Shown one piece after another: positions 27,924 through 45,146 of a stretch of 64,000 nucleotides of DNA (within the stretch, counting starts at the first letter, position 1; every line of letters begins with the position of its first letter). The position numbers and the translations under genes were made by a program. The notes under the pieces were generated by a model, which had not been told where the DNA came from, ran no database searches, and saw only the letters and a list, made by a program, of their open reading frames with translations. The DNA comes from Candidatus Moraniibacteriota bacterium (lineage in GTDB: Bacteria > Patescibacteriota > Minisyncoccia > Moranbacterales > GCA-2747515): the NCBI GenBank assembly GCA_016699795.1, contig CP065011.1:482474-546473 (forward strand), read 5' to 3'.

Positions 27924-29075
27924 ATGGTTAGTTGCACAAATAGTAAAGATAGTCATCTTTTATCTAATGGTCGGCATAGATCCCGACTCTTCCATTTATT
28001 ACAAAGAGCTCGAAAAACTCGTAAGTATTCAGCTATAGCGGTTGTTTTAATGAGTGTTTTTCTTGTTTCTACTAATAATATTTCTACTCGTTATAAAACG
28101 AAAGATCAATTAGAAAAAGAAGTTTTTACGCATTCTTTTAAGACAAATACTATTGAAGAGAAAACTTCAAGAAATACCATTGCTGCTTTGCCTTATATTC
28201 AAACAAACAACACAACAACTTCACAACTAGAACAAAAACAGGAAATCTCCATTCTTCCACCTGATGCAAAAACTCAATCTGCTTTTTCTTATTTTTCAGC
28301 ACAATCCTTTGTAGCTACTGTTAATGCTATGGAAAAAGATCCTGAAATAGACGGTGGTATGACTCTTTATGTAGTACAAGAAGGGGATACGGCGAGTTCG
28401 ATAGCCTCAAAACATAATATAAACATCAACACACTCTACTGGGCAAACAATATTGAAAATATTGATGAGATTATGCCAGGAGACACCCTCTTCATCCTTC
28501 CTGTTTCTGGACTAAAATATAGTATTAAAAATGAAGACACTCTCAAAAGTCTTGCGGATAAATACGAAGTTAGTGAAGATCAAATCATAGCCTTTAATGA
28601 ACTTCCAGCAAATGGACAATTAAAAGAAGGTGATGAAATTATTATTCCGGGAGCAAAAAAGGATATTCCTGAACTGGAACAAGAAGAAGTATCACCAAAC
28701 ACAAATCTTTTTGCACCGAGGCAGTATACTGGATCTAACGGAAAAAATGTTGAGAACAGACATGGTAAACCCAACACTTTTCCTTATGGTTATTGTACGT
28801 GGTATGTAGCTCAACAAAAACACGTTCCTTGGCGAGGAAATGCTGGAACGTGGCTTTATAACGCCAAAGCCTCAGGATATGCAACAGGAAGTAAACCAAA
28901 AACAGGATCTATCGTTGTTACTACTGATAATACTTATTATGGCCATGTTGCTGTAGTAACGAAAGTATCGGAAGATTCTATTACTGTAAAAGAAATGAAT
29001 TATAAAGGATGGGGAGTTGTTAATACTCGAGATATTAGTATCAAAGATCGACGTATTAAAGGGTATATCTATTAG
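27924..29075 (+). CDS. membrane-anchored peptidoglycan hydrolase: 2x LysM + CHAP domain
   Basis: 383 aa. N-terminal TM. Two LysM repeats (YVVQEGDTASSIASKHNINTLYWANNI... and YSIKNEDTLKSLADKYEVSEDQIIAFNEL...). C-terminal CHAP-like domain with candidate catalytic Cys (YGYCTWYVAQ) and His (YYGHVAVVT). Confidence 0.75.
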   Translation: MVSCTNSKDSHLLSNGRHRSRLFHLLQRARKTRKYSAIAVVLMSVFLVSTNNISTRYKTKDQLEKEVFTHSFKTNTIEEKTSRNTIAALPYIQTNNTTTSQLEQKQEISILPPDAKTQSAFSYFSAQSFVATVNAMEKDPEIDGGMTLYVVQEGDTASSIASKHNININTLYWANNIENIDEIMPGDTLFILPVSGLKYSIKNEDTLKSLADKYEVSEDQIIAFNELPANGQLKEGDEIIIPGAKKDIPELEQEEVSPNTNLFAPRQYTGSNGKNVENRHGKPNTFPYGYCTWYVAQQKHVPWRGNAGTWLYNAKASGYATGSKPKTGSIVVTTDNTYYGHVAVVTKVSEDSITVKEMNYKGWGVVNTRDISIKDRRIKGYIY

Positions 29076-29287
29076 AAATTCTTTTTTAAAATAGGAATCA
29101 CACTCTTTAAAATACAGTATTGTGAAAAATAAATAGCATGATAAATCCTACATTTTTTAGTATTTTTTCTTTTAAAATAGGGGGGAATATTCTATTTCTT
29201 TCCAGGGTATGCACAAATTTTTGTTTTCATGATATTATAAAAATATAATAAAAAGATACTTTAGTGTAAGAATGTTTTCATTTTCTT

Positions 29288-31498
29288 ATGAAACAAATAC
29301 AAAATAAAAAAAGTTATTTCATTTTCTTTTCCACCTTCCTTTTCTTACTAGTTATTTTTCTTCCTACAATACTTTACGCTGCGCCAGGAGAGCCTAGTCT
29401 TGTAGATAAAGTTTTCAGCCCTATTATTAGCCTTTTACTCGGTATTCTTTGGTTAATAACTTCTCTTATTAATGTCGCGGCTGTTTTATTTGGCTATGTT
29501 GTTGATGCTAAAAGCTTTTCAACTATAATGAATAATCCAGCTATAAAGACTTCATGGATTGTTGTTCGTGATGTCCTTAATATCGCATTTATTCTTGTTC
29601 TTCTTTTTAGTGCTTTCGCTACTATATTTCAAATTGAAAAATTCCATGTAAAAAAAATCCTTCTTACTCTTATCATCATGGCTCTTTTAGTAAATTTCAG
29701 CTATCCCATATCGAGATTTATTATCGATACCGCAAACATCCCCATGTATCATATCGCCACTGTTGTTTTTGGCGAGGGCGCTGATTGGATGGCTGTTCTA
29801 GCGGGAGAGTCTGGATTAGGGGATCTCTTCAAGCCTGCAGCAGAATTTGAAAATCAACAATATAAAGATCTTTTAGCTGCTATTCTTTTTTCATTCATTT
29901 TTCTCATAACTTTAATGGCTCTTTCTGTTTTATTCCTCATTCGATTGGTAGTTCTTATTATACTTGTCATCTTTTCTCCTCTCGGTTTCGTAGCGGCAAT
30001 TCTCCCTTCAACCAAAAATTATGCTGATGATTATTGGACTGCCTTAATGAAAAATGCATTTTTTGGTCCCATTATGATGCTCATGCTCGCTCTCAGTATT
30101 TTTATTCTCAAGGCATTCCAAAGCGCAAGTATTGAAGGATTTGCTTCAGGAAATGCAGCTTCTACTTCTGGTGAAACAGCTCTTGCTCAATGGGCATTTG
30201 CTTTTGTTCCTGTTGTCATTCTTTGGGGAGGTATAATTTGGTCCCAAAAACTTGGTGCTGTAGGGGCAAGTTTAGTTATGAGTAAAGTTGATAGTTATTC
30301 CAGAAAAAGTTGGGGTGGTGTAAAACCCATTCTCTGGGCGGGAGATCGTGTAACAGGGGGGCTTACTAAAGGGATAGATGGGGGATTACGTTTTTTAGGA
30401 TATAATCGAGCTGCTCGAGTCAATTCAGCCTACAATCAAGCGAAAGCAGTTCCATCAGCAGTAAAAAAAGTTTATTGGGATGATAAAGTAGCCGCGAGAA
30501 AACAAGAAGCAGAAGATGCTCGAAACCTTGTAACAGGAAGATTACCTCTTAGCGGAACAACTGTTCGAAATGCCCACGAAAGACTCGAACAACAACAAAT
30601 ACAAAGAAAAAAGAAAGAAAATGAAGAGAAAAATTATACCATGTCCAACTATCGCAATGATTTAGCTGAATCGAACGACAAAGTAACCCGAATCGCGGCT
30701 GCTCAAGGAATGGCTCAAAAAGGATTTACGAACATTCCAGACATACAGAGAGCGCTCCAAGCTAGTAGAGGAGATTTGGATACGCAACAGTTAATCTTAC
30801 AAAAAATTCCCAAAGAATTAGCGTCGCAAATCAATCCAGATCAAATTCGTGGCTTAAGTAATAACCTCACAAATATAAATACTCTCCAAGAAAATCAACC
30901 AGGTCTCTCAAATGCTGACGCGCAGGCGGAAATTGATACCCTTAGAAACACGTTCGATTCCAAACTAAGAGAGAACCTTAAAGTAAAAAATACAGATGCT
31001 CTCGTTCAAAGTTTGTCGAATATACAAGGAAATACTAGACTCTCTTCCCAAATTTTAAAAAATGCGGATGCTGGAGCATTAAGAAATCTTAATACACAAC
31101 AAACAATAGCTCTTAGAAATACGCTAACTGACAGAGCCCGCATTCAAACTATTAATCCCCATCTCGATGCAACAGAAGTTGATGCTGAAATTGAGGAAGT
31201 AACACGAAGTCTTAGAAATGCTTTACGGGATGCGGGAAGAATAGATCTCTATATCGATAGTGAACTTGATCCAGCATATGTTGGTACTCGCACAAGAGAG
31301 CAAATCGTCAATACAACAGTCAGGAGTATGGATAATAAATCTCTTGGAAGCCAAAATGAGGCGTTCTATAGAAGTCAGGCTGTTCAAAACAATTTTGCAA
31401 ATATGACGCTTAACAATCCTCAAAGATTTAATGATGTAATGACACATATGAGCAATGAAAATCTAAACCATCTGCAAAGTCCAACTCTTCTCCCTTAA
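29288..31498 (+). CDS. VirB6/TrbL/PrgH-like polytopic membrane protein with ~330-aa hydrophilic C-terminal domain
   Basis: 736 aa. Signal peptide then ~8 TM helices. Long polar repeat/coiled-coil C-terminus. Architecture and position in a locus with VirB3-like and VirB4 genes suggest a T4SS channel component. Confidence 0.45.
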   Translation: MKQIQNKKSYFIFFSTFLFLLVIFLPTILYAAPGEPSLVDKVFSPIISLLLGILWLITSLINVAAVLFGYVVDAKSFSTIMNNPAIKTSWIVVRDVLNIAFILVLLFSAFATIFQIEKFHVKKILLTLIIMALLVNFSYPISRFIIDTANIPMYHIATVVFGEGADWMAVLAGESGLGDLFKPAAEFENQQYKDLLAAILFSFIFLITLMALSVLFLIRLVVLIILVIFSPLGFVAAILPSTKNYADDYWTALMKNAFFGPIMMLMLALSIFILKAFQSASIEGFASGNAASTSGETALAQWAFAFVPVVILWGGIIWSQKLGAVGASLVMSKVDSYSRKSWGGVKPILWAGDRVTGGLTKGIDGGLRFLGYNRAARVNSAYNQAKAVPSAVKKVYWDDKVAARKQEAEDARNLVTGRLPLSGTTVRNAHERLEQQQIQRKKKENEEKNYTMSNYRNDLAESNDKVTRIAAAQGMAQKGFTNIPDIQRALQASRGDLDTQQLILQKIPKELASQINPDQIRGLSNNLTNINTLQENQPGLSNADAQAEIDTLRNTFDSKLRENLKVKNTDALVQSLSNIQGNTRLSSQILKNADAGALRNLNTQQTIALRNTLTDRARIQTINPHLDATEVDAEIEEVTRSLRNALRDAGRIDLYIDSELDPAYVGTRTREQIVNTTVRSMDNKSLGSQNEAFYRSQAVQNNFANMTLNNPQRFNDVMTHMSNENLNHLQSPTLLP

Positions 31499-31503
31499 AT
31501 TGT

Positions 31504-32598
31504 ATGCCAAAACAAAAATATCCTTTTTTCTTTTATCCCATGCTTCTCGATAATGAAAAAAATCAAGGCTTTTCAAAAACATTTATCGACCATTGGATGC
31601 GCCAAAAAAAACTCCCCGAAAAAAGGGGTCTTGTTCTTGTTCACAGTAAAACAACCGAATGGATAGCAGAAATTTCAAAAAAATATAATTTTTCCGAAAA
31701 TCAGACAACAAGTCTTTCTCGTATTATTCGTGATTTTGGACTTAATGATATTAAGGAAAATGAAATTCCTTTGCTTATACAAAAAAGTTTCTCTGCTTTT
31801 TCCGAGGAGCAAAAAAAGTTTCTTGAGAATTTTATTGTAAAACTCTTTCAAATAGAGCTTCCTGAAGATACTCTTTATCAAGAAGAAATACCTAAGGAAG
31901 AAAGTAAAGAAAATTCTCTCCCAAAAGAGAGCATACCACAATCTCCAAAACTCACTCTTTTAGAAGCTCTTATTAAGTACCCACGAATAGGTCAGCAACT
32001 CATTACCTCTCAAAACATTGTTATGCGAGGTGCTCAAGAACCTGTTCGTCCTTCCATAAAAAATTGGATTACTCTTTATCAACAAGAAATGGGACCTTCA
32101 CCTCATGAAACTTTTGAAAGGGGAAATTTTCTTTTTCAAAATCAAAATGCTACAAGATTATCCCCGAGAGAACGTGAGTTAATTCATGAAATCCTCAAAT
32201 CTCTCGATGAAAACAAACCCCTTCCTATAAATCAAATTACTCAAGAAATCCGTCTGGATGAGATAATGAGTTCCTCTCAAGGTTCTTTTTCTAAAGAAAA
32301 AACTTCTCCTTCCATACAAACAACTTCGAATCAAAAAAAGGATTTAACTATGAATTCAGGCACGCTATCCCTAAATTCTTCTTCTACAAAAAAAGATAAT
32401 TTGGAGTATCGTTCGGAAGAAAAACCTTCTTATTCAAAACAAGACACTGCAATAGCATCAAATACTCAATCAACTTTTCAAGGATTGCGTATTGGCGGAG
32501 AAAATGATAATTTTTTTTCAAAAAAAACACTGGAAGATTCTCTTAATACTAAAAATATTAGTTTTTCCTCTGGTCAAAAATTCCCCGGAGAAGAATAA
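31504..32598 (+). CDS. hypothetical soluble protein within T4SS-like locus
   Basis: 364 aa with no TM. Ser/Thr/Gln-rich C-terminus. No motif recognised. Confidence 0.4.
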   Translation: MPKQKYPFFFYPMLLDNEKNQGFSKTFIDHWMRQKKLPEKRGLVLVHSKTTEWIAEISKKYNFSENQTTSLSRIIRDFGLNDIKENEIPLLIQKSFSAFSEEQKKFLENFIVKLFQIELPEDTLYQEEIPKEESKENSLPKESIPQSPKLTLLEALIKYPRIGQQLITSQNIVMRGAQEPVRPSIKNWITLYQQEMGPSPHETFERGNFLFQNQNATRLSPRERELIHEILKSLDENKPLPINQITQEIRLDEIMSSSQGSFSKEKTSPSIQTTSNQKKDLTMNSGTLSLNSSSTKKDNLEYRSEEKPSYSKQDTAIASNTQSTFQGLRIGGENDNFFSKKTLEDSLNTKNISFSSGQKFPGEE

Positions 32599-32683: not shown

Positions 32684-33163
32684 ATGATGCGATTTCCTGT
32701 TCCACAATTTATCGGAGTTGAAGATAAGATTGCAGGACCCCTCACATGGAAGCAACTTTATTGGATGATTGCTATGGGAGTATTTCTTCTCCTTCTATGG
32801 AAAGCTTTTTCCCTTATTGTTTTCATCCCTCTTGGTGGACTTGTTGTGAGTATTTTTACAGCATTTGCTTTCTATAAACCATGGGGTCAACCCCTTTCTA
32901 AAATGGTATGGCATGCTATGATATTTCTATTTCGACCCAAAACATATACCTGGCAACAAACACCCACTGCTGCAAAGATCATCGGGGGGGACATTGCCAT
33001 TCCGATAGCTCCAAAAAAAGAAGATCCTAAAAAAACATTACAACGAATACAAGATTATTCAGAAGTTCTTGATAATCCTACAAAGAAAACTTTTTCAGAT
33101 TCAATGGTGACTCCGAAATCAAAACGTGATATACTTTCAATATTCTCAAAAAAAGAAAAATAA
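32684..33163 (+). CDS. VirB3/PrgI-like small two-TM protein
   Basis: 159 aa with two adjacent hydrophobic helices (WMIAMGVFLLLLWKAFSLIVFIPLGGLVVSIFTAFAF). Sits directly upstream of virB4, the conserved virB3-virB4 order. Confidence 0.35.
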   Translation: MMRFPVPQFIGVEDKIAGPLTWKQLYWMIAMGVFLLLLWKAFSLIVFIPLGGLVVSIFTAFAFYKPWGQPLSKMVWHAMIFLFRPKTYTWQQTPTAAKIIGGDIAIPIAPKKEDPKKTLQRIQDYSEVLDNPTKKTFSDSMVTPKSKRDILSIFSKKEK

Positions 33164-33166
33164 CCT

Positions 33167-33874
33167 ATGTCAACAGAAAACCTACATCAGCCAAATCTTT
33201 CTCCAAAAAAACAAGGACCTAGTACTTTAGAGTATGTAGACGTTCAGGAAATTCATGATGGCATTGTAATACTCAGAGATGGCTCTTTTCGAGCTATTTT
33301 AGCTGTTTCTTCTCTTAATTTTGATCTCAAGTCTAGTGATGAACAAGATGCTATTATTTTTCGTTATCAGCAGTTTCTTAACTCTCTTGACTTTCCTCTT
33401 CAGTCCACTATTCATTCTCGAAGAATAAATATCGCACCTTATCTCGAAATGCTCAAAATTCGTGAAGCTGAACAAACAGATGAGCTTATGCGTATGCAAA
33501 TTTATGAATACCGTAATTTTATTAAGAATCTCACAGAAGTTCAAAATATCATGACAAAGTCTTTCTTTGTTGTTGTACCGTTTTTTCCTGTTGAAAAAAC
33601 AAAAAAAGGTATCTTTTCGGAACTTTTTCAAATGTTCAATCAAGATCTTGTTATCAAACACAAACTTGAAAAATTTGAAACTTACAAAAGCCAGCTCTTG
33701 CAAAGAGTTGATCATGTTGTTGCTGGTCTTTCTGGAATGGGGCTACGACTCGCGCTTCTAACCACAGAAGAAACCGTAGAACTTCTTTATAATTCATACA
33801 ATCCATCTCTCTTTAGTATGAATATTATTAATGACATCGAAAGTATGGAAACTCAAAATAGAATAACTCGATAA
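33167..33874 (+). CDS. VirB4 ATPase, N-terminal domain (separate ORF)
   Basis: 235 aa. LEYVDVQEIHDGIVILRDGSFRAILAVSSLNFDLKSSDEQDAIIFRYQQFLNSLDFPLQ matches the N-terminal region of Gram-positive VirB4/TcpF/Orf16-type ATPases. Ends with TAA 2 nt before the next ATG, in a different frame. Confidence 0.6.
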   Translation: MSTENLHQPNLSPKKQGPSTLEYVDVQEIHDGIVILRDGSFRAILAVSSLNFDLKSSDEQDAIIFRYQQFLNSLDFPLQSTIHSRRINIAPYLEMLKIREAEQTDELMRMQIYEYRNFIKNLTEVQNIMTKSFFVVVPFFPVEKTKKGIFSELFQMFNQDLVIKHKLEKFETYKSQLLQRVDHVVAGLSGMGLRLALLTTEETVELLYNSYNPSLFSMNIINDIESMETQNRITR

Positions 33875-35687: not shown

Positions 35688-36311
35688 ATGGAAAATGATA
35701 ATTTCCAAAGAGAATTCGAATATCAGCAACAACTCCAAAATCTACAAATCAATCAAAGGATGCGCTCTCAAAAAATAAATGAGAATTTGCAAAGAGGTGA
35801 AAAAACCTTACGCAAAGGATCCAGGATTGTTACTGATTTTAAAGGAATTTCTAAATCAAATCTTCTCAACGTCGTTAAATTAGCGAGAGAACATAGAGAG
35901 GCTATTAAGTATGGGGATTTTTCTGTTTTTTTTCTTCCTTTTGTTCTCGCTCTAGGAAAAGACGTGCCTCTTGACATGCTTGGGAATATTCCTATCTTTG
36001 GGCAACTTATAACAGCTATTCCTAGTTTTGCTATAACATTGTATCTTTTTGTATTTCTTTTTGGACATGGCTTGTGGTGGCGTAAAAGACTTTTACGAGC
36101 ATTACTCAAAATTTTACTTTTTTTACTTGATTATCTTCCTTTTCTCAATTTTCTACCTTGGACAACTTTGGGTGTTTTTCTTATTTATCGCGATGCCAAA
36201 AAAGACAAACGTGTAGCGGAAGAAGCTGAAAGAAAATTATTAGAAGAAGATAAAAAACAAAGATTACAAAATCGAAGACGTTTAGCACAAGCACAAGATT
36301 CGTTTATTTAA
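35688..36311 (+). CDS. hypothetical membrane protein (3 TM) in T4SS-like locus
   Basis: 207 aa. Polar N-terminus, three hydrophobic helices and a basic/acidic coiled C-tail. Confidence 0.4.
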   Translation: MENDNFQREFEYQQQLQNLQINQRMRSQKINENLQRGEKTLRKGSRIVTDFKGISKSNLLNVVKLAREHREAIKYGDFSVFFLPFVLALGKDVPLDMLGNIPIFGQLITAIPSFAITLYLFVFLFGHGLWWRKRLLRALLKILLFLLDYLPFLNFLPWTTLGVFLIYRDAKKDKRVAEEAERKLLEEDKKQRLQNRRRLAQAQDSFI

Positions 36312-40000: not shown

Positions 40001-40040
40001 AATTCTTTATTCTTTAGGAAGATCTAATCGTTCATCATAA
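37038..40040 (+). CDS. large Cys-rich cell-surface protein with signal peptide and C-terminal TM anchor
   Basis: 1000 aa. N-terminal signal (MRTRKISRIFAFFLLISLNITYISPVFAQ). Many Cys. Ca-binding-like CDADGDGTLTIEDW. C-terminal hydrophobic anchor FLSILVSIFILGILYSL followed by a basic tail. Confidence 0.6.
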   Translation: MRTRKISRIFAFFLLISLNITYISPVFAQFSGLIEEAASIIERRYHLNLGSIQNQGEYFNVSDQKKLAPELIMNFTPTDPKPGQELTAKSFPMYFENNKEELYYTWYLQKEGCDDLDSKNNLEKCDADGDGTLTIEDWKVEASRIIANSVIERDEIKYDNDDDNDGFAYVHTGKKVAVYGGAARRQILERCYILDRETGEQHELIKGKAPDGTPGNNQNPFDCDLTTHNVRCLDRAATPSGCSLPTCFSHPSPYFTALAPDCLSDNKISCVRGKPYCIAKIYTLDDDPATYLEKEQCHDDYPDFCGSLYIDAKELTSCDNGGNNGSTYATAGCKHLFPNAKGKEFITNNKQGTSVNEVTGDGEYELQEEKFWVTDPHNDDTANTGNGDESNIVGMGIDTFTWNYQLGDKVGLVIEGTSQIPTKYDNHSKMIMWAFSKNDCPVTGKGVYYPQVKDYAVKIHTTTMDLDSCLEKNLIDPREGGQKNNIDVSLVYSPEKPMNNSRVVGGEDTAPDKDDSLGFGETLTINSSISNSKKDESHISYTWKVFISKDGTFDPRKYVRESDPIKTGDESTAGWVEITKELVKYKLVDLVEGNNISDLDISLNITEKLLKEADPSLTIEKVFPDSLGNIGHLRVRLYVKEEFAPDVSADGVSTIIIPVNNSGKRLTSSLAFLDDIKPKTFINEDPKSTANNKKVLICEDKLTLASGICYVTKNEVIAAELGKLENEDATEKLTNFSWELDGKPLLCDKNVSRKYCEDDKQTRYNFFAITGKPGERHSLTLTALEEVTGQVKTFTQTYEVVDPFIEIIPFDDNVWPKYLGAYRDAQGKYHEDISTEVFQGYFGDSAYLQAVFFPDFLKKRARKQWLCSSNLCDTTHMEIGANELPTVYFPMIDPPGHTYNVSMEAIYQQNREVREAMQRIWGMRIFETTDYWIKKAVRIEVLENNEEEDIALLTPKTFFASVLSNTPKHIWFATQAFLSILVSIFILGILYSLGRSNRSS

Positions 40041-40059: not shown

Positions 40060-41196
40060 ATGAAAAATATTTTTATTATAAGCTCTGTTCTCTTTAGTAT
40101 TACTCTACTTTCTTGGTTATTATTTGTTTTTTTTGTTAAAGATCCCAAAGAGATAGAAGAGAAGCCTTCTCCCATTAGTGAGATTCAAGAAAAAGAAGAA
40201 CCCAAAGAAACCAGCTCGCCTTTTCAAATTTTTAGTGATTTCCCTATTCTTTCTCCACTTCTTTCGGAAGACGGTTCTTCTATTTTTGGTTATCACAAAG
40301 AAACGTCCACACTTTATTCTCTTAATGTAGAAAGTGGAGAAAAAAAAGTCCTTCAAGACACACAACTCACAAATCCCCTCATTGCTCTCTGGGCAAAAGA
40401 TCCTCGTATTTCCATACTCAAAACTTCTCCCCAAAAAAATGCTGAGTATTTTCTCGTGGATAGTAATTCTCAAACAACAACACCTCTTCCTTCCAATATT
40501 ACCTATTTAAATTGGGATAATCTATCTGAAAAAATTATTTTCATTCAAAGAAAAAAGCCTGAGGAGATACTTTTTTCCACGGCAAAACCTGATGGATCAG
40601 AACCAAAAGAACTTCTTACTATCACAGAGAAAGGAAGAATTTCTCTTATTCCTGTACCACAATCCCCAGCTATAGCTTATTGGCCACAAAGCGCTAATAC
40701 AAAAATTTCACCACTTTTTCATATTAATCTTAGTTCCGGCACAAAAACGGAAATATTTTCAGGAAGATATGGGGGAGATTATCTCTATTCTCCTGATGGA
40801 GAAAAAATTCTTCTTAGTTGGTCTCCAGAAAAAAACAGTTCCAAACTCACACTCGCTCTCTTAAATAAATATGGCGGTCAATATAAAGATCTTGGCCTTC
40901 CTACATTAGTATCTAAATGTGCATGGGGAAAAAATACTGTACATATTTATTGCGCTGTTCCCACAGGAATACCCCAAACAGCTGTTATGCCCGATGATTA
41001 TCTTAATGGAAAAGTATCTACCGTAGATTCTCTTTGGAAAATAAACGTAGAAACTGGAAAAAAGGAACGTGTCGTAGAACTCTCTGATATAAAAGAAACT
41101 TTTGATGTTACTAATATTTTTATCGATGCAAGCGAGCAATTTCTTTATTTTACGAACAAATCCACAAATATCCTCTATAAAGTAAAACTCCCTTAA
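40060..41196 (+). CDS. membrane-anchored PD40/TolB-like beta-propeller protein
   Basis: 378 aa. N-terminal TM. Repeated ...SPDGEKILLSWSP..., ...KPDGSEP... blocks typical of PD40 propeller blades. Confidence 0.5.
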   Translation: MKNIFIISSVLFSITLLSWLLFVFFVKDPKEIEEKPSPISEIQEKEEPKETSSPFQIFSDFPILSPLLSEDGSSIFGYHKETSTLYSLNVESGEKKVLQDTQLTNPLIALWAKDPRISILKTSPQKNAEYFLVDSNSQTTTPLPSNITYLNWDNLSEKIIFIQRKKPEEILFSTAKPDGSEPKELLTITEKGRISLIPVPQSPAIAYWPQSANTKISPLFHINLSSGTKTEIFSGRYGGDYLYSPDGEKILLSWSPEKNSSKLTLALLNKYGGQYKDLGLPTLVSKCAWGKNTVHIYCAVPTGIPQTAVMPDDYLNGKVSTVDSLWKINVETGKKERVVELSDIKETFDVTNIFIDASEQFLYFTNKSTNILYKVKLP

Positions 41197-41211: not shown

Positions 41212-42489
41212 TTGAAAATAAGAAAAAATATAGTAACCTCTATGTTTAAAAATAAAATATTTAAAAAAATAAACATCCTTCTTTTGAATATCAAAGAAAG
41301 AATTATTTTTTTTGTTTTTATTCTATCTTTTTTTATTATTCAAAGCCCCTCTGTTTTTGCCATGACTGAAGCTGAATGCGAAGCAAAAAGTGGTGCTGGT
41401 CCGAATGAGAAAGCTTATTGCTCTTCTACTATGTGCTCTACTGGGGAAGGGAAAGAGACTTATTTAGGAGAATGTGATTCACTTATCTCGCCACATTGTT
41501 GTAAAAAAGGAGATTACACTACAACTACAAGTTGCGCTGCTTTGGGTGGTACTTGTAGTGGCCACGCTAGTTGCCCCAGCCTCACCTCTCGTGTTGGTCT
41601 CTGTGATAAATTAGCTGATGGTGGAACTGATACTTGTTGTAAACCAACAAAGATTGTTTATCCTGATGGATCAACACCAAAAGCCAATTCAACCTCTTCT
41701 TTCGACTATACCCCCCTCGAACCCATTCCAGGTGCTACAAATGATACATCTACTCTTGCAGGATTTCTTGAAGGTCTTTATTTTTTTGTTATGTGGAGTG
41801 CAGGAGTGATGGCTATGTTCATGATAGGGTTGGGAGGTTTCTGGTATCTTACTTCAGCAGGAAACACTTCTCGTGTAGGAGAAGCTAAAACTATTATTGT
41901 TAATGCTCTTTTGGGACTTTTAGTTCTTACGTTTACATGGCTTATTCTCTACATCATTAATCCAGATCTTACTAAGTTAGATTGGAGTAGCTTGGAGGAA
42001 ATTCTCATTGATCGAAAGGGGTCCTCCTTTAACAATCCTCCTCAAATTGGTCCAGGAAATCCTAATAATGGTAATGGATCTTGTAGCCCAGTTTCCAATG
42101 GACCTTGTTCGGTTGAAAATTTAAAACAAACCTGTCTTTCTTCAAATGTAAATGTATTTTCACAAATATGTAATAAAGAAAGTAGTGGAGACCCTCTAAA
42201 ACCAAGTGTCGTTGATCGTTGTAAAAAAAGAGGTAATAATGAGCCCTTTTCTATAGGTCTTTATCAAATCAATCTTACTGTTCATACTATAGGCGGTCTT
42301 AATTGTCCTTCTGCCTTCAATGGAAAAAATTATGATTGTATAGTAATTAATAAGGATCTTTATGAAAAATGCGTTAAGGCGGCACAAGATCCCAATCTTA
42401 ATATAAAAAAGGCTTGCGAAATTTCAGGTAATGGTAATAATATAGGTCCTTGGAAAAATACAGCTATTACTTGCGGTCTTTATAAATAA
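41212..42489 (+). CDS. chimeric protein: signal peptide + Cys-rich domain + T4SS-pilin-like two-TM hairpin + lytic transglycosylase (SLT/VirB1-like) domain
   Basis: 425 aa. Hairpin LAGFLEGLYFFVMWSAGVMAMFMIGLGGFWYLTSAGNTSRVGEAKTIIVNALLGLLVLTFTWLILYIINP resembles TrbC/VirB2-type pilins of Gram-positive/CPR T4SS. C-terminal ...ICNKESSGDPLKPSVVD...FSIGLYQINL... resembles the SLT catalytic E-S and GLMQI motifs. Confidence 0.6.
   Translation: MKIRKNIVTSMFKNKIFKKINILLLNIKERIIFFVFILSFFIIQSPSVFAMTEAECEAKSGAGPNEKAYCSSTMCSTGEGKETYLGECDSLISPHCCKKGDYTTTTSCAALGGTCSGHASCPSLTSRVGLCDKLADGGTDTCCKPTKIVYPDGSTPKANSTSSFDYTPLEPIPGATNDTSTLAGFLEGLYFFVMWSAGVMAMFMIGLGGFWYLTSAGNTSRVGEAKTIIVNALLGLLVLTFTWLILYIINPDLTKLDWSSLEEILIDRKGSSFNNPPQIGPGNPNNGNGSCSPVSNGPCSVENLKQTCLSSNVNVFSQICNKESSGDPLKPSVVDRCKKRGNNEPFSIGLYQINLTVHTIGGLNCPSAFNGKNYDCIVINKDLYEKCVKAAQDPNLNIKKACEISGNGNNIGPWKNTAITCGLYK
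41695..42003 (+). repeat. 309-nt cassette, nucleotide-identical to 43614..43922 (pilin-like hairpin-coding segment), copy 1
   Basis: Direct comparison of the two stretches shows identity over 309 nt, encoding SSFDYTPLEPIPGATNDT...DWSSLEEI. Flanking sequence on both sides is unrelated. Confidence 0.85.
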
Positions 42490-42499
42490 AAATAGCTTT

Positions 42500-43054
42500 A
42501 TGAAAATAAATTATCGATTTTTTATTCTTTTTTTTCTTTCTCTTATTTTTTTAGTTGGGACTTTTTTTATAACACTACAGTATATTAACTTTCCTTTACT
42601 CCCAAATAAAAAAGAAACTCTAGAAAAAAAAGTGGGTGAAGAAAATAAACCTAAAAAAGAAAGAATTATTGAAATTCTAGACCATTCCAAATACACTCAT
42701 GAAAAAATAGGCTCGGATATAATATCTCAATCAAGAAAAATAGATGATACTATTTATATCTTTCTCGAAAAAAATAAAATTAGTGAATATGAAAATCCTG
42801 ATTATGTCATTTATTATTTTTTAAAAAAAAGTCCTAATGGGGAGATAAAACCTGAGGGCTCCGTAAGAATCATTCTTCAAAAAAAGCCATTTGAAGAGCT
42901 TAGAGCCCTTGCGGAAAAAGATTTTCTTGATAAACTTGCTCTTACAAAAGAGGATGCTTGTCAACTTGATATTTCAGAAACTATTTTATTTGAGATAGAT
43001 CCAGAGCATGGTGGGGTTGATTTTGGATTAAGTTTTTGTGAAAACTCTTTATAA
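42500..43054 (+). CDS. N-terminally anchored hypothetical protein (possible VirB8-like accessory)
   Basis: 184 aa. Single N-terminal TM then soluble domain. Assignment by architecture only. Confidence 0.35.
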   Translation: MKINYRFFILFFLSLIFLVGTFFITLQYINFPLLPNKKETLEKKVGEENKPKKERIIEILDHSKYTHEKIGSDIISQSRKIDDTIYIFLEKNKISEYENPDYVIYYFLKKSPNGEIKPEGSVRIILQKKPFEELRALAEKDFLDKLALTKEDACQLDISETILFEIDPEHGGVDFGLSFCENSL

Positions 43055-43205
43055 AGATTTCACTATTATTATAAATCCCTTCATAAAAACTTCTTCTAAC
43101 ATACTTTATTTTTCTTTCCAAAAAACGCATTGTCTTTTATAATTTAAAATAAGATATTTCAAATTATAAAATTAAATTGTCTTATTGTTTTTAAAATAAA
43201 ATAAT

Positions 43206-44420
43206 ATGAAAAATAAATTCTTTCCTTTTTTCTTTTCTTTTCTATTATTTTATTCATTCCTTCCGATTCAAGCTCAAGCAGGATTTACTTCAGATGCGGA
43301 ATGTTTTGATGCTTTTGGAGTACCAACAGCAAAGAATTCTGCTTGTGCGCAAGGGTATTATGAAGGTGGTGATATTTGTTACAAATTAGCTGATGGTACA
43401 ATTAACTGTAACTTAACAAAGTGTTGTATAGACGAAGAAAAAGGAAATAAAAATGATTTAACAAAAAAATGCCAAACTGAAATGGGGGGGACTTATATCA
43501 CAGGGAATATCTGCTCTACTGGTGATGATGAGAAAGGAACATTAAAAGATCCAAAAAATCCAACATATACCTACAAATGTTGTAAAAAAAATTATACAAC
43601 TCCTTCATCAGATTCTTCTTTCGACTATACCCCCCTCGAACCCATTCCAGGTGCTACAAATGATACATCTACTCTTGCAGGATTTCTTGAAGGTCTTTAT
43701 TTTTTTGTTATGTGGAGTGCAGGAGTGATGGCTATGTTCATGATAGGGTTGGGAGGTTTCTGGTATCTTACTTCAGCAGGAAACACTTCTCGTGTAGGAG
43801 AAGCTAAAACTATTATTGTTAATGCTCTTTTGGGACTTTTAGTTCTTACGTTTACATGGCTTATTCTCTACATCATTAATCCAGATCTTACTAAGTTAGA
43901 TTGGAGTAGCTTGGAGGAAATTGCAGTAGATGTGGGCTCTGAAACAGGAACAGGAAATAAATCAACAATTGATACACCAACAACCGTGGGTTGTGGGAAA
44001 ATAGTTGAAGCTGCGCATGCTATGGTAACTAGTGGCTGTAAATATAGCCAAGCGAAACGAAATGCTTGTACTGGAAATCCAGGGTATACAGATTGTTCTG
44101 ATTTTACATATCATGCCTATAAAAAAGCTGGTTGTAGCACTGGTTTTGGGAATACCACAGCTACTATGGTAGGTAAAACACCTACATTTAATGGAGATCA
44201 ATCAAGTCTTAAAGCTGGTGATGCTCTTGTTTATAATAATGGGGGTAGTGGTCATGTTGTTATATGTGAACAAGATGGCTGTAATACAATAACTCATGCG
44301 TCGGGAGAAAAAGCTGGTTTAAAAAAGGGAGCTTCCTCTGGTTACATATTTAAAAAACCGAACCTTCATGTTATTCGAGCAGAAACATTTTGTGCCAATG
44401 CTAAAGATGCTTCTTGTTAA
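43206..44420 (+). CDS. chimeric protein: signal peptide + Cys-rich domain + T4SS-pilin-like two-TM hairpin + NlpC/P60-or-CHAP-type cysteine peptidase domain
   Basis: 404 aa. Central 103 aa identical to the paralog at 41212..42489. C-terminal ...GYTDCSDFTYHAYKKAGC...GDALVYNNGGSGHVVIC... has Cys and His spaced as in NlpC/P60/CHAP papain-like peptidoglycan peptidases. Confidence 0.6.
   Translation: MKNKFFPFFFSFLLFYSFLPIQAQAGFTSDAECFDAFGVPTAKNSACAQGYYEGGDICYKLADGTINCNLTKCCIDEEKGNKNDLTKKCQTEMGGTYITGNICSTGDDEKGTLKDPKNPTYTYKCCKKNYTTPSSDSSFDYTPLEPIPGATNDTSTLAGFLEGLYFFVMWSAGVMAMFMIGLGGFWYLTSAGNTSRVGEAKTIIVNALLGLLVLTFTWLILYIINPDLTKLDWSSLEEIAVDVGSETGTGNKSTIDTPTTVGCGKIVEAAHAMVTSGCKYSQAKRNACTGNPGYTDCSDFTYHAYKKAGCSTGFGNTTATMVGKTPTFNGDQSSLKAGDALVYNNGGSGHVVICEQDGCNTITHASGEKAGLKKGASSGYIFKKPNLHVIRAETFCANAKDASC
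43614..43922 (+). repeat. 309-nt cassette, copy 2 (identical to 41695..42003)
   Basis: See copy 1. Offset between copies is 1919 nt. Confidence 0.85.
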
Positions 44421-44429
44421 CTTAAAAAT

Positions 44430-45146
44430 ATGACAAAAAAAATTATTTTTCTTATCGTTATCTTTCTATTCCTTCTAATTTTGGGAATATTCTTTTTTTT
44501 CCAAAAAAACAAAATAACACAAGAAGATTCTCCCACTAAAAATATACAAAAAATAGAAATTCCTACTGAGAAGGAAAAAGAAACAGCACTTATTTCAAAT
44601 GATTTACAAAATTTTCTTTCTACGCCGACATCAGAAGAAATAACGTGGTTCTCTCCAAAAAATACAGAAAAGAATGAGATTCTTCCTATAAGAGAATTTT
44701 TTCAAAAAAATTCTCTTCGTCTTTCTGTTGAAATGCAGACAAAGATCGATTGGAAAGACTATGATCTTTTTTTATGCCCATCTCCAGATGAAAATGGAGT
44801 GGGAGTCCGTCTTACTCAAATAGCAAATCCCCAAACAGGAAAACCTACTTATGAAGAAATACTTCAAGCTCTCGATACTTGGTCAAGCGTAATACCAATA
44901 GATCTTTGGTTATTATTTTTCAAAAATCCTGAAGAAACAAAAAATATACAATCCGTTTTTGTTGAAAATAAAGAGTATTCTTATGATTCTGCCTATGAAT
45001 GGAGATATAAAAAAGCAATTGTAACATTTGTTAGTGGAGAGAAAAAAGAATTTTATTATGGAACAGTTGCTCATAATATCCTTATTACGCAATCTCTTTC
45101 TTGTGTTCACAAAGTCTCCAAACAACTTTACGATCTTGTCCCATAA
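44430..45146 (+). CDS. N-terminally anchored hypothetical protein
   Basis: 238 aa. N-terminal TM (IIFLIVIFLFLLILGIFFFF) then soluble domain. 3' end overlaps the convergent gene by ~60 nt. Confidence 0.4.
   Translation: MTKKIIFLIVIFLFLLILGIFFFFQKNKITQEDSPTKNIQKIEIPTEKEKETALISNDLQNFLSTPTSEEITWFSPKNTEKNEILPIREFFQKNSLRLSVEMQTKIDWKDYDLFLCPSPDENGVGVRLTQIANPQTGKPTYEEILQALDTWSSVIPIDLWLLFFKNPEETKNIQSVFVENKEYSYDSAYEWRYKKAIVTFVSGEKKEFYYGTVAHNILITQSLSCVHKVSKQLYDLVP

What the first reader, a model, noticed from the sequence alone, without database searches (positions are those of the whole stretch)
27924..45146. Type IV secretion-like locus (VirB3-like, split VirB4, VirB6/PrgH-like, pilin-domain proteins, multiple cell-wall hydrolases) with no relaxase/VirD4 in the window
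Eleven-plus co-oriented plus-strand genes follow a consensus promoter. They encode a LysM-CHAP hydrolase, a ~8-TM protein with a big C-terminal ectodomain (VirB6/PrgH-like), a 2-TM VirB3-like protein directly preceding a VirB4 ATPase (clear Walker A/B), several small membrane proteins, a 1000-aa Cys-rich surface protein, a TolB-like propeller and two pilin-hairpin/hydrolase chimeras. This is the Gram-positive/CPR 'minimal T4SS' gene set. No relaxase, VirD4 coupling ATPase or oriT-like element is visible within the window. That argues against a conjugative plasmid/ICE and for a chromosomal apparatus, possibly for DNA uptake or host-cell interaction in an episymbiotic lifestyle. The combination of components here is unusual and poorly characterised.
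Basis: partly seen in the sequence, partly recalled or inferred. Interest (0 to 1): 0.8.

Follow-up and report, generated by a model that had tools for sequence, protein, structure and literature searches.

The report
Patescibacterial chromosomal type IV secretion locus
This is a real, intact type IV secretion gene cluster in the chromosome of a tiny, probably host-dependent "Moranbacteria" bacterium; this non-conjugative kind of system was described in 2023-2025 and is thought to serve contact with the host cell, so the locus is a good new example rather than a new kind of system.

Summary
Window 27924-45146 holds 14 co-oriented genes behind a perfect sigma-70 consensus promoter. They encode a LysM-CHAP hydrolase, a VirB6/TrbL-like protein, PrgI/VirB3, a TrsD-like protein plus VirB4, and a CPBP-like membrane protein. 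They also encode a 1000-aa Cys-rich surface protein, a TolB-like propeller and two pilin-hydrolase fusions.

No relaxase, coupling ATPase, adjacent integrase or flanking att repeats occur in the 64 kb. The flanks are housekeeping genes, and dnaA/oriC lies about 8 kb away.

The "split VirB4" is not a broken gene. In 78 of 78 related loci that have the TrsD-like gene, it is a separate gene from virB4.

The genome is a Candidatus Moraniibacteriota MAG. Gene order is conserved across 80 related genomes.

This is the Patescibacteria-type T4SS, derived from monoderm MPF-FATA systems. It was described by Wang 2023 and Quinonero-Coronel 2025.

Some details were not found in the literature searched:
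- The VirB2-like pilin module is fused to swappable wall-hydrolase domains.
- A 309-nt stretch encoding that module is 100% identical between the two genes. The same pattern recurs in two other genomes.
- A histidine-less CPBP-like protein is a conserved neighbour of virB4.

The function (host contact, with uptake or delivery) is inferred, not shown.

The parts
27746..27773 (+). Promoter-like site, TTGACA-16-TATAAT (12/12), about 150 nt upstream of the first gene
   Evidence: the only 12/12 match in 27400-45400. Sequence read. This is a pattern match only; no expression data.
27924..29075 (+). Membrane-anchored LysM x2 + CHAP peptidoglycan hydrolase (VirB1-type role)
   Evidence: Pfam LysM 8e-22 and CHAP 1.6e-18. 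One TM-like segment at residues 37-55. Found about 6 kb upstream of virB4 in most of the 29 of 80 related loci where it is detected.
29288..31498 (+). VirB6/TrbL-like polytopic membrane protein (7-8 TM) with an all-alpha hydrophilic C-terminal domain of about 400 aa ('extended VirB6')
   Evidence: Homologues carry PF04610 TrbL and PF19590, and 13 of 35 hit TrbL. AF2 model has pLDDT 76. Its best PDB matches are TrwI/VirB6 chains 8rtd_L, 8rt9_F and 7o3v (prob 1.0, TM-score normalised to target 0.48-0.54). Weak NCBIfam hit to the CD3337/EF1877 mobilome membrane protein family. Found in 56 of 80 loci.
31504..32598 (+). Conserved soluble protein of unknown function between the VirB6-like and VirB3-like genes
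   Evidence: No TM segment and no Cys. No Pfam, NCBIfam or PDB match. Present in the same position in 57 of 80 loci.
32684..33163 (+). PrgI/VirB3-like small membrane protein
   Evidence: Pfam PrgI 5.9e-9, 36.8 bits against a cut-off of 27. Found in 74 of 80 loci immediately upstream of the TrsD-like gene.
33167..33874 (+). TrsD-like protein, homologous to the N-terminal part of VirB4; a separate gene
   Evidence: NCBIfam: VirB4 CD1110 profile positions 11-117 (8e-7) and TrsD (1.6e-6). All 28 orthologues hit TrsD and VirB4 N-termini. Precomputed Pfam PF26593 TraC-like. Ends in TAA, and the next ATG is 2 nt later in another frame. Separate from virB4 in 78 of 78 loci.
33877..35682 (+). VirB4 ATPase (signature T4SS motor)
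   Evidence: Pfam TraG P-loop 4e-24, plus AAA_10 and DUF87. NCBIfam CD1110-family VirB4 at 346 bits, above the cut-off of 325. Identical (100%) to an NCBI Candidatus Moraniibacteriota MAG protein. Identity is 57-70% to VirB4 in 80 other patescibacterial genomes, but only 27-34% among the 15 best-ranked plasmid-borne VirB4 hits, and below 60% in all 2987 plasmid records with a match.
35688..36311 (+). Small 2-TM protein with Q-rich N-terminus and charged C-terminus; fast-evolving
   Evidence: TM-like segments at residues 107-125 and 135-153. Detectable in only 8 of 80 loci by tblastn, always directly after virB4.
36329..36994 (+). CPBP/Rce1-like 6-TM protein lacking the catalytic histidines (probably non-catalytic)
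   Evidence: Fifteen of 25 orthologues hit PF02517 (best 1.9e-7). There is no conserved His in the orthologue group, and the window copy has 0 His. Found in 47 of 80 loci, about 2.4 kb after the virB4 start.
37038..40040 (+). 1000-aa Cys-rich type-I surface protein (signal peptide, C-terminal TM anchor); candidate adhesin or distal component
   Evidence: 22 Cys, with TM-like segments at residues 6-24 and 976-994. Found in 52 of 80 loci in the same position, with many invariant Cys, Trp and Gly. No Pfam or PDB sequence match.
40060..41196 (+). N-terminally anchored TolB-like beta-propeller protein
   Evidence: NCBIfam TolB propeller 8.6e-6. The orthologue profile hits TolB chains in the PDB down to 7.4e-8. 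Found in 28 of 80 loci.
41212..42489 (+). Fusion protein: signal peptide, Cys-rich domain, VirB2-like two-helix pilin module, lysozyme-like SLT_3 domain
   Evidence: Pfam SLT_3 3.5e-5 and T4SS_pilin 7.8e-4, both below cut-off. 22 Cys, three hydrophobic segments. Orthologous pilin-SLT3 fusions occur in 8 other loci. The TTG start is uncertain; NCBI calls a 375-aa product.
41695..42003 (+). Copy 1 of the 309-nt perfectly identical pilin-module cassette
   Evidence: 100% identical to 43614-43922, while the flanks are 20-28% identical. An independent short-read contig ends at 41724, 30 nt into the repeat.
42500..43054 (+). Small bitopic protein with two conserved Cys, paired with the pilin-SLT3 gene; function unknown
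   Evidence: One N-terminal TM segment. Five homologues in related loci; in L058 the homologue directly follows the pilin-SLT3 gene. No PDB or Pfam match.
43206..44420 (+). Fusion protein: signal peptide, Cys-rich domain, VirB2-like pilin module, NlpC/P60 endopeptidase domain
   Evidence: Pfam NlpC/P60 3.2e-4 and T4SS_pilin 7.7e-4, both below cut-off. AF2 model (pLDDT 68) has a helical hairpin at residues 157-189 and 194-224 and a well-predicted C-terminal domain. That domain matches LytE, T. thermophilus NlpC/P60 and Cg1735. Homologues with PF18895 plus PF00877 exist.
43614..43922 (+). Copy 2 of the 309-nt identical pilin-module cassette
44430..45146 (+). Small bitopic protein, lineage-specific, function unknown
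   Evidence: One N-terminal TM segment. No tblastn match in the 80 related loci. No Pfam or PDB match. Its 3' end overlaps the convergent Wzy-like gene 45085-46353 by 62 nt.

Best explanation
**What it is (well supported).** This is the vertically inherited chromosomal type IV secretion system typical of Patescibacteria/CPR. The lineage derives from the conjugation machinery of monoderm bacteria (MPF-FATA). Here it sits in a Candidatus Moraniibacteriota (Parcubacteria group) genome, about 8 kb from dnaA/oriC.

**Components**
- The cytoplasmic-membrane core is a VirB6/TrbL-like channel protein, PrgI/VirB3, and a VirB4 ATPase working with a separately encoded TrsD-like protein homologous to the VirB4 N-terminus.
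- The wall is cut by a LysM-CHAP hydrolase and by two proteins in which a VirB2-like pilin hairpin carries a lysozyme-like or an NlpC/P60 domain.
- The lineage-specific outer parts are a 1000-aa Cys-rich surface protein, a TolB-like propeller, a histidine-less CPBP-like membrane protein and small bitopic proteins.

**How it works (inferred).** There is no relaxase or coupling ATPase at the locus, so it is not a DNA-export (conjugation) machine. Instead, VirB4 probably powers assembly of a pilin-based tube or contact structure. This structure, helped by its attached hydrolases, reaches or breaches the envelope of a host bacterium and serves as a conduit.

My estimates for the main direction of traffic are:
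- uptake of host-derived macromolecules, especially nucleic acids: about 0.4;
- delivery of proteins to the host: about 0.25;
- contact or anchoring only: about 0.15.
For: **Component identities:**

**Source organism**
- The VirB4 and pilin-fusion proteins are 100% identical to NCBI Candidatus Moraniibacteriota MAG proteins (locus tags IPN70_02540 to IPN70_02595). The VirB4 cluster's longest contig is 1.19 Mb.
- The lineage is Patescibacteria group, Parcubacteria group.

**Chromosomal and vertically inherited**
- The flanks are gyrA, pnp, rbfA, tRNAs and rpsA-like S1 on one side. On the other are Wzy genes, glycosyltransferases, jag-yidC-rnpA, dnaA and dnaN, with DnaA-box clusters.
- GC is even at 0.31-0.37.
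- No direct repeats bracket the locus.
- The same genes occur in the same order and on the same strand in up to 78 of 80 related genomes.

**Not conjugative:** no relaxase, T4CP or adjacent integrase in 64 kb.

**TrsD and VirB4 as an ancestral pair:** 0 of 78 loci have them fused.

**Literature**
- PMC12102498 describes the Patescibacteria VirB4 clade nested in MPF-FATA. It reports TrsD, PrgI, VirB6 and VirB2-like pilins near virB4, relaxase absence in most clusters, and proximity to dnaA/dnaN/rnpA/ksgA in Paceibacteria.
- PMC10633639 shows that the T4SS and its pilins are essential for epibiotic growth of a Saccharibacterium, while competence is dispensable.
- The bioRxiv preprint 10.64898/2026.06.21.733656 reports tubular structures at the parasite-host interface and host RNA uptake in a cultivated member of the phylum.

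**Pilin modules:** the perfectly homogenised pilin modules suggest that the fusion proteins must fit one common assembly.
Against: - No experiment exists for any Moranbacteria system. The direction of transport and the substrate are unknown.
- The window pilin modules score below Pfam's cut-off (19.9 against 26.6 bits). A two-helix hairpin alone is not diagnostic of a polymerising pilin.
- No VirB8-like component could be identified.
- A T4CP or relaxase could lie elsewhere in the 1.19-Mb genome, which I could not scan. PMC12102498 reports that VirD4-like genes are common in Patescibacteria but mostly far from virB4.
- No VirB4 phylogeny was built here. Clade membership rests on the identity gap: 57-100% to CPR proteins, against 27-34% for the best-ranked plasmid-borne ones.
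- The host-dependent lifestyle of this particular organism is assumed from its lineage.
Confidence: 0.85

Rival explanations
1. It is (part of) an integrative conjugative element or a decaying remnant of one. The T4SS would export DNA, with the relaxase and coupling protein encoded outside the window.
For: - VirB4, TrsD, PrgI and VirB6 are homologues of monoderm conjugation proteins.
- Among plasmid records carrying a VirB4 match, 2064 of 2987 are predicted conjugative.
- A tyrosine recombinase gene lies at 3404-4405.
- VirD4-like genes are reported to be common, but distant from virB4, in Patescibacteria.
Against: - No relaxase or T4CP occurs in 64 kb.
- The recombinase is 24 kb away among housekeeping genes. 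It has the SAM_1 plus integrase architecture that I recall as typical of XerC/D; I did not test this.
- No att-like repeats bracket the locus, and there is no GC anomaly.
- All genes are intact.
- Position and order are conserved next to the same chromosomal neighbours across about 80 species-level genomes. That is the signature of vertical inheritance, not of a mobile element.
- Relaxases were found in only 103 of 3035 Patescibacteria genomes.
Confidence: 0.03
2. It is a ComB- or Ced-like dedicated DNA-uptake machine, that is, a natural-transformation apparatus for environmental DNA rather than a host-contact organelle.
For: - No T4CP or relaxase is present, as in H. pylori ComB (own knowledge).
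- The ATPase domain shows weak similarity to the archaeal DNA importer CedB (2.3e-13, far below cut-off).
- The literature proposes import of DNA or other macromolecules.
Against: - ComB is known to use VirB7-10 homologues (own knowledge). None was found among the 14 locus products.
- The CedB match covers only the shared P-loop region (about 75 residues).
- In the one tested species, ComEC-dependent competence is separate from the essential T4SS function.
- The locus invests heavily in wall hydrolases, a large Cys-rich surface protein and a propeller. This fits cell-to-cell contact better than uptake of free DNA.
Confidence: 0.1
3. The pilin-hydrolase proteins are not pilus subunits. They would be VirB1-type wall hydrolases that use a pilin-like hairpin only as a membrane anchor or docking element at the T4SS, which would then have no pilus, as in ordinary Gram-positive systems.
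For: - Both window copies carry bulky domains on each side of the hairpin: 135-161 aa on the N-terminal side and about 160 aa on the C-terminal side. These might hinder helical packing.
- The window has no stand-alone small pilin gene.
- The pilin Pfam scores are below cut-off.
- Gram-positive T4SSs normally lack pili.
Against: - Orthologous modules pass the PF18895 cut-off.
- Related loci encode the identical module both as a stand-alone 152-aa pilin and as a fusion (L074).
- Pilin arrays are essential in S. epibionticum.
- Exact homogenisation of only the hairpin is easier to explain if the copies must co-assemble.
- Proteolytic release of the module cannot be excluded.
Confidence: 0.3

Closest known systems
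Patescibacteria-clade T4SS (Quinonero-Coronel et al. 2025, PMC12102498; the functional example is SEML1_0006-0019 of Ca. Southlakia epibionticum, Wang et al. 2023, PMC10633639)
   Same: - It has VirB4 with an adjacent separate TrsD-like gene, PrgI/VirB3, VirB6 and VirB2-like pilin-domain genes, with wall hydrolases downstream of virB4.
- There is no relaxase or T4CP at the locus.
- It is chromosomal and close to dnaA/dnaN/rnpA, with ksgA also in the window. This is as reported for Paceibacteria-type genomes.
   Different: - Instead of an array of small divergent pilins, this locus has only two pilin modules. They are 100% identical over 309 nt, and each is fused to a Cys-rich N-terminal domain and a different peptidoglycan hydrolase.
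- The locus also carries conserved Moranbacteria accessories that those papers, as far as I read them, do not discuss. These are a 1000-aa Cys-rich protein, a TolB-like propeller and a His-less CPBP-like protein.
- No experimental data exist for this lineage.
Monoderm conjugative T4SS of class MPF-FATA (pGO1/pSK41 TrsD-TrsE; pCF10 PrgH-PrgI-PrgJ-PrgK; Clostridioides CD1110-type ICEs)
   Same: - VirB4 meets the NCBIfam CD1110-family cut-off.
- TrsD and VirB4 are two genes, as in pGO1.
- The gene order VirB6-like ... VirB3-like - VirB4, plus a CHAP-type hydrolase, resembles prgH-I-J-K (the pCF10 order is from my own knowledge).
   Different: - Only 27-34% VirB4 identity among the best-ranked plasmid-borne homologues.
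- There is no relaxase, T4CP or oriT, no recognisable VirB8-like protein (PrgL/TraM/TcpC type) and no PrgB-type adhesin.
- VirB2-like pilin modules are present, which these systems lack.
- The locus is not on a mobile element.
R388/Agrobacterium VirB-type (MPF-T) T4SS of diderm bacteria
   Same: - The VirB6-like N-terminal domain shares the TrwI/VirB6 fold.
- VirB2-type two-helix pilin hairpin.
- VirB3 and VirB4 are adjacent.
   Different: - No VirB5, VirB7, VirB9, VirB10 or VirB11 homologue was found among the 14 locus products, and no VirD4 anywhere in the window.
- The envelope is monoderm.
- The VirB6-like protein has a C-terminal alpha-helical extension of about 400 aa.
- The hydrolases are fused to the pilin modules rather than being a separate VirB1.

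Membership tests
Patescibacteria-clade T4SS (PMC12102498) | VirB4 ATPase of the MPF-FATA-related lineage | tested here: met
   NCBIfam CD1110-family VirB4 at 346 bits, above the cut-off of 325. Pfam TraG P-loop 4e-24.
Patescibacteria-clade T4SS (PMC12102498) | VirB4 belongs to the monophyletic Patescibacteria clade | tested here: inconclusive
   No tree was built. As a proxy, the protein is 100% identical to a Moraniibacteriota MAG protein and 57-70% identical to VirB4 of 80 other patescibacterial genomes, including Portnoybacteria, Andersenbacteria and Saccharibacteria-labelled MAGs. Identity is only 27-34% among the 15 best-ranked plasmid-borne VirB4 hits.
Patescibacteria-clade T4SS (PMC12102498) | Separate TrsD-like gene (VirB4 N-terminus homologue) next to virB4 | tested here: met
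   establish the homology; separate ORFs in 78 of 78 related loci. TAA stop and a frame change in the window.
Patescibacteria-clade T4SS (PMC12102498) | PrgI/VirB3 and VirB6 homologues near virB4 | tested here: met
   PrgI is above the Pfam cut-off. VirB6 is supported through homologues' TrbL hits and the TrwI fold match. The window protein itself gives no direct Pfam hit.
Patescibacteria-clade T4SS (PMC12102498) | VirB2-like (PF18895) pilin gene(s) near virB4 | tested here: met
   The window copies score 19.9 bits, below the cut-off of 26.6 but inside the paper's own criterion of i-Evalue below 0.001. Orthologous modules score 28-34 bits. The model shows a helical hairpin.
Patescibacteria-clade T4SS (PMC12102498) | No relaxase associated; chromosomal; near oriC genes in Paceibacteria-type genomes | tested here: met
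   Pfam scans of the flanking ORFs of at least 100 aa. dnaA lies at 53002, with DnaA boxes nearby. The rest of the genome was not scanned.
Conjugative T4SS / ICE (MPF-FATA) | Relaxase (MOB) and oriT | tested here: not met
   No relaxase domain was found in any Pfam-scanned ORF of the 64-kb window. Genome-wide absence is not testable with these tools.
Conjugative T4SS / ICE (MPF-FATA) | Type IV coupling protein (VirD4/TcpA) | tested here: not met
   No VirD4, TraG-D or FtsK-type domain in the window. ORFs without a Pfam hit have no Walker A motif.
Conjugative T4SS / ICE (MPF-FATA) | Integrase plus flanking direct repeats, and variable genomic location | tested here: not met
   No bracketing repeats. 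The only recombinase is 24 kb away and has the SAM_1 plus integrase architecture that I take to be XerC/D-like; I did not test this. The locus position is conserved across genomes.
Conjugative T4SS / ICE (MPF-FATA) | VirB8-like (NTF2-fold) bitopic protein such as PrgL, TraM or TcpC | tested here: inconclusive
   The bitopic candidates 42500 and 44430 gave no sequence or profile match to any solved structure.
ComB-type DNA-uptake T4SS | VirB7-VirB10 homologues forming the envelope channel; role in transformation | tested here: not met
   No VirB7, VirB8, VirB9 or VirB10 domain was found. The function is not testable here.
CPBP/Rce1 intramembrane proteases (ORF 36329) | Catalytic motifs EExxxR, FxxxH and HxxxN/D (motif definitions from own knowledge) | tested here: not met
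   The fold family is supported, since 15 of 25 orthologues hit PF02517. However, motif 1 reads YExxxR. A conserved Gln at position 152 appears, by my reading, to occupy the place of the motif-2 His. There is no conserved His, and the window copy has none.

The most novel reading that the evidence does not exclude
In Moranbacteria the T4SS pilus, or distal tube, would be built from 'armed' pilins. One polymerisation cassette, kept identical by gene conversion, carries interchangeable wall-degrading heads (lysozyme-like, NlpC/P60, or a third Cys/His-rich type) and Cys-rich tips. The filament would then enzymatically drill through the host cell wall. The fusions would also explain why most Patescibacteria with VirB2-like genes lack a recognisable VirB1. 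The conserved histidine-less CPBP-like protein next to virB4 would act as a pilin chaperone or dislocase, or as a self-protection factor, rather than as a protease.
Probability: 0.2. Interest if true: 0.65.

Novelty: new member of a known kind. Interest (0 to 1): 0.35.

Why it matters
Patescibacteria are a large share of bacterial diversity, and most are thought to live on other cells. Their T4SS is the first T4SS shown to be essential for the growth of the bacterium that carries it. Its substrate and direction of transport are still unknown.

This window adds a complete, near-oriC example from a long (1.19 Mb) Moranbacteria contig. It has a clear 14-gene inventory, and 80 syntenic relatives help separate the core parts from the lineage-specific ones:
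- **Core:** VirB6-like, the conserved unknown 31504, PrgI, TrsD and VirB4.
- **Lineage-specific:** the CPBP-like protein, the 1000-aa Cys-rich protein, the propeller and the pilin-hydrolase fusions.

The pilin-hydrolase fusions and their homogenised cassette give a concrete, testable idea of how such a machine could get through a host wall. As a system, however, this is not a discovery, because it is already in the literature.

Tried and rejected
1. **VirB4 as a pseudogene or frameshift: rejected.** The stop is TAA with a frame change. The same two-gene layout is present in 78 of 78 relatives. The longer VirB4 homologues of 770-830 aa do not contain the TrsD-like sequence.
2. **Alternative genetic code: not indicated.** Long intact ORFs are found throughout under table 11, and the TrsD-like genes of relatives end in TAA, TAG or TGA.
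3. **ICE hypothesis: rejected**.
4. **Profile searches against PDB sequences: little gained.** The profiles for TrsD (A5), ORF 31504 (A4), ORF 36329 (A6) and the 1000-aa protein (A7) returned no hits. ORF 42500 (A9), ORF 44430 and the 'type 3' C-terminal domain of related pilin fusions returned only weak, uninformative matches.
5. **Pfam on 23 orthologues of the 1000-aa protein: nothing**.
6. **Foldseek of the whole pilin-NlpC/P60 model:** it recovered only the hydrolase domain, not VirB2 pilins. A domain-cut search was not possible with the jobs left.
7. **Assembly artefact as the cause of the 309-nt repeat: considered unlikely.**
   - The same pattern occurs in two unrelated assemblies.
   - An independent short-read contig breaks 30 nt into the repeat.
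   - Read-level confirmation is still missing.
8. **Membrane topology of the VirB6-like C-terminal domain: unresolved.** Hydropathy gives 7 TM-like segments, whereas the model could accommodate 8 (my reading).

Full report
**1. What is in the sequence**

Window 27924-45146 carries 14 plus-strand ORFs with short or no spacers. A perfect sigma-70 consensus (TTGACA, 16 nt, TATAAT) lies at 27746-27773. It is the only 12/12 match in the 18 kb scanned.

GC content is even across the window, at 0.28-0.37.

Five tRNAs are the only Rfam or ARAGORN features.

**2. Component identities**

| ORF | Assignment | Main evidence |
|---|---|---|
| 27924 | Two LysM domains plus CHAP, behind an N-terminal anchor | |
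| 29288 | VirB6/TrbL-like; residues 400-736 are an all-alpha repeat domain | See below |
| 31504 | Soluble protein, function unknown | |
| 32684 | PrgI/VirB3 | 36.8 bits, above the Pfam cut-off of 27 |
| 33167 | TrsD-like (VirB4 N-terminus homologue) | See below |
| 33877 | VirB4 | Pfam TraG P-loop 4e-24; NCBIfam CD1110 family 346 bits against a cut-off of 325, profile positions 176-732 of 752 |
| 35688 | Small 2-TM protein | |
| 36329 | CPBP/Rce1-like, without catalytic His | 15 of 25 orthologues hit PF02517; no conserved His; window copy has none |
| 37038 | 1000 aa: signal peptide, 22 Cys, C-terminal anchor |; no family match |
| 40060 | Anchored TolB-like beta-propeller | Profile against PDB TolB, 7.4e-8 |
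| 41212 | Signal peptide, Cys-rich domain, two-helix pilin module, SLT_3 lysozyme-like domain | |
| 42500 | Small bitopic protein, function unknown | |
| 43206 | Signal peptide, Cys-rich domain, two-helix pilin module, NlpC/P60 domain | |
| 44430 | Small bitopic protein, function unknown | |

*The VirB6-like protein (29288).* The window protein has no direct Pfam hit. Its homologues carry PF04610 TrbL/VirB6 and PF19590, and 13 of 35 hit TrbL. The AF2 model has pLDDT 76. Its best PDB matches are the TrwI/VirB6 chains of the R388 T4SS, with probability 1.0 and TM-score normalised to target of 0.48-0.54.

*The TrsD-like protein (33167).* It matches positions 11-117 of the same VirB4 profile and the TrsD/TraD family. 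All 28 orthologues tested do the same. The precomputed Pfam annotation is PF26593 TraC-like.

*Cysteine content.* The extracellular proteins have 19-22 Cys each, whereas the cytoplasmic and membrane-core proteins have 0-2.

**3. The 'split VirB4'**

The 235-aa ORF ends in TAA. The VirB4 ATG follows 2 nt later in another frame.

The TrsD-like gene is present in 78 of 80 related loci. In all 78 it is a separate ORF from virB4, ending in TAA, TAG or TGA.

This is therefore the ancestral TrsD + VirB4 pair known from pGO1 and reported as the most abundant T4SS component in Patescibacteria (PMC12102498). It is not a disrupted gene.

**4. Genomic context**

Pfam scans covered all 38 further non-nested ORFs of at least 100 aa in the window. 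They show ordinary chromosomal genes:
- a tyrosine recombinase with SAM_1 plus integrase domains (which I take to be XerC/D-like), UvrD, KsgA, a ComM-like Mg-chelatase family ATPase, LspA, PNPase and GyrA;
- RbfA, NrnA, UDG, an S1 protein, two Wzy-like proteins, glycosyltransferases and a flippase;
- Jag-YidC-RnpA, DnaA, DnaN, PBP1, RuvC and YebC.

DnaA boxes cluster in the rnpA-dnaA and dnaA-dnaN spacers. The locus therefore ends about 8 kb from oriC.

There is no relaxase, no VirD4/FtsK-type ATPase and no integrase next to the locus. The ORFs without a Pfam hit have no Walker A motif. No direct repeats bracket the locus.

**5. Source and relatives**

VirB4, the VirB6-like protein and the pilin fusions are 100% identical to proteins of an NCBI 'Candidatus Moraniibacteriota bacterium' MAG. 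The locus tags run from IPN70_02540 to IPN70_02595, and the VirB4 cluster's longest contig is 1,186,598 bp. The lineage is Patescibacteria group, Parcubacteria group.

A scan of species-representative genomes returned 80 loci with VirB4 at 57-70% identity. Most are Moranbacteria. Portnoybacteria, Andersenbacteria and some mislabelled MAGs also appear.

tblastn of each window protein against these loci shows the same strand and the same order:

| Protein | Loci with a match (of 80) |
|---|---|
| TrsD-like | 78 |
| PrgI | 74 |
| ORF 31504 | 57 |
| VirB6-like | 56 |
| 1000-aa protein | 52 |
| CPBP-like | 47 |
| LysM-CHAP | 29 |
| Propeller | 28 |
| Pilin fusions | 21-22 |
| ORF 35688 | 8 |
| ORF 42500 | 5 |
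| ORF 44430 | 0 |

The Wzy genes follow downstream in 24-26 loci.

The best-ranked plasmid-borne VirB4 proteins are only 27-34% identical. They are of the CD1110 type and come from Firmicutes and Actinobacteria.

**6. Comparison with what is known**

Quinonero-Coronel et al. 2025 (PMC12102498) surveyed 3035 Patescibacteria genomes. They describe:
- a monophyletic VirB4 clade nested in MPF-FATA;
- TrsD, PrgI/VirB3, VirB6 and VirB2-like pilins near virB4;
- almost no relaxases;
- T4CP genes mostly far from virB4;
- location near dnaA, dnaN, rnpA and ksgA in Paceibacteria and Microgenomatia.

Wang et al. 2023 (PMC10633639) found that the T4SS and its pilins are essential for epibiotic growth of Ca. 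Southlakia epibionticum. A 2025 review calls these systems unique among monoderm T4SSs (PMC12857230). A 2026 preprint reports possible T4SS tubes and host RNA uptake in a cultivated member of the phylum.

The window locus matches this description feature by feature. It is a new member of a known kind.

**7. Details that go beyond the papers I could read**

*(a) Homogenised pilin cassette.*
- The two pilin-module genes share an exact 309-nt run (41695-42003 = 43614-43922). It coincides with the hairpin module, and identity in the flanks falls at once to 20-28%.
- Between genomes the modules are only about 40-50% identical at the protein level. Yet two other loci also have 100%-identical modules in adjacent paralogues with different C-terminal domains. 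L058 has 279 nt shared by a Cys/His-rich 'type 3' fusion and an SLT3 fusion. L074 has 207 nt shared by a fusion and a stand-alone 152-aa pilin.
- An independent short-read contig ends 30 nt into the window repeat, as expected at a true repeat.
- Recurrent gene conversion limited to the module suggests that all copies must fit one common assembly.

*(b) Fusions are frequent.* Of 49 pilin-module ORFs near virB4 in 33 sources, 28 have a C-terminal extension of at least 100 aa. These are SLT3-like (8), 'type 3' (12), NlpC/P60 (the window) or unclassified. Database homologues show the same modularity, and some are named 'pilin' by NCBI. The literature searches I ran found no mention of such fusions.

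*(c) CPBP-like neighbour.* The conserved CPBP-like neighbour of virB4 lacks the catalytic histidines.

**8. Mechanism: what is shown and what is inferred**

*Shown:*
- the homology of the core proteins to T4SS parts;
- the hydrolase domains;
- the membrane or extracellular character of the accessory proteins;
- chromosomal, conserved, non-mobile context.

*Inferred:*
- VirB4, with TrsD, PrgI and the VirB6-like protein, forms the membrane translocon and drives extraction or assembly of the pilin-module proteins.
- LysM-CHAP and the pilin-borne hydrolases open peptidoglycan, either the cell's own, the host's, or both.
- The Cys-rich giant protein and the propeller form or stabilise the distal, host-facing part.

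The missing coupling protein and relaxase argue against export of cytoplasmic DNA. A monoderm does not need a T4SS merely to release Sec substrates. I therefore favour a contact-dependent conduit with the following weights:
- uptake of host macromolecules: about 0.4;
- delivery to the host: about 0.25;
- anchoring only: about 0.15;
- free-DNA uptake of the ComB or Ced type: about 0.1;
- conjugation: about 0.03.

**9. Limits**
- No VirB4 tree was built.
- The rest of the genome could not be scanned for a T4CP or relaxase.
- The window pilin and SLT/NlpC Pfam scores are below the gathering cut-offs and rest partly on orthologues and on the model.
- No VirB8-like protein was identified.
- The topology of the VirB6-like C-terminal domain is unresolved.
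- The structure-prediction, protein-homology-search and family-scan quotas were exhausted before ORFs 31504, 37038, 42500 and 44430 could be modelled.

Noticed in passing
window 41695-42003 and 43614-43922; L058 16221-17968; L074 10853-12194: A 309-nt stretch is exactly identical between two otherwise unrelated genes and coincides with the pilin hairpin module. The same pattern (279 nt and 207 nt) occurs in two other genomes. This suggests recurrent gene conversion confined to the module.
   Followed up: yes
L081 (Logan SRR11674012 contig), whose end corresponds to window 41724: An independent short-read assembly of the same sequence stops 30 nt inside the first repeat copy, as expected for a repeat-induced contig break. 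This supports the repeat being real.
   Followed up: partly
window 36329-36994: This CPBP/Rce1-like 6-TM protein is conserved just downstream of virB4 in 47 of 80 loci, but the orthologue group has no conserved histidine. The window copy has 0 His and has also lost two otherwise near-invariant residues (E117 to F, D212 to S). It is probably a pseudo-protease.
   Followed up: partly
L058 16221-17072 and 11 other related ORFs: A third C-terminal domain type is fused to pilin modules. It is rich in Cys and His and contains motifs such as SCHYGG, AVDF and NHVHVS. By eye these resemble LAS-type zinc peptidase motifs. Neither Pfam nor PDB sequence searches recognised it.
   Followed up: partly
window 22618-22831: A 47-nt tandem repeat of 4.6 copies at 99% identity lies in the spacer between a metallo-beta-lactamase-fold gene and tRNA-Ala. 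Its function is unknown.
   Followed up: no
window 52843-52964 and 54569-54695: DnaA-box-like sites (TTATCCACA with at most 1 mismatch) cluster in the rnpA-dnaA and dnaA-dnaN spacers. This marks the probable oriC, about 8 kb from the T4SS locus. Such boxes are also over-represented in the window as a whole: 31 found against 18.8 expected.
   Followed up: partly
window 31504-32598: This soluble, Cys-free 364-aa protein has a conserved central block (EPVRPS..NW..Y..ELG ... RGNFLF). It sits in a fixed position between the VirB6-like and VirB3-like genes in 57 of 80 loci. It matches no known family and may be an unrecognised core T4SS component of this lineage.
   Followed up: partly
window 44430-45146 and 45085-46353: The last gene of the locus overlaps the convergent Wzy-like gene by 62 nt. 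ORF 44430 has no detectable homologue in any of the 80 related loci.
   Followed up: no
window 1104-3411 and 13794-15776: These are other secreted or anchored proteins without family assignment. One is a 428-aa protein with a signal peptide and a Cys-rich C-terminus. One is a protein with a TSP3 repeat. One is a 660-aa acidic, low-complexity protein with a single TM segment.
   Followed up: no
window 58992-61064: A gene for an ATP-grasp (sugar-transfer-associated) domain fused to a zinc-protease-like domain lies next to a gene for a 7TM 'transglutaminase-associated' protein. This pair is of unclear function in a reduced genome.
   Followed up: no
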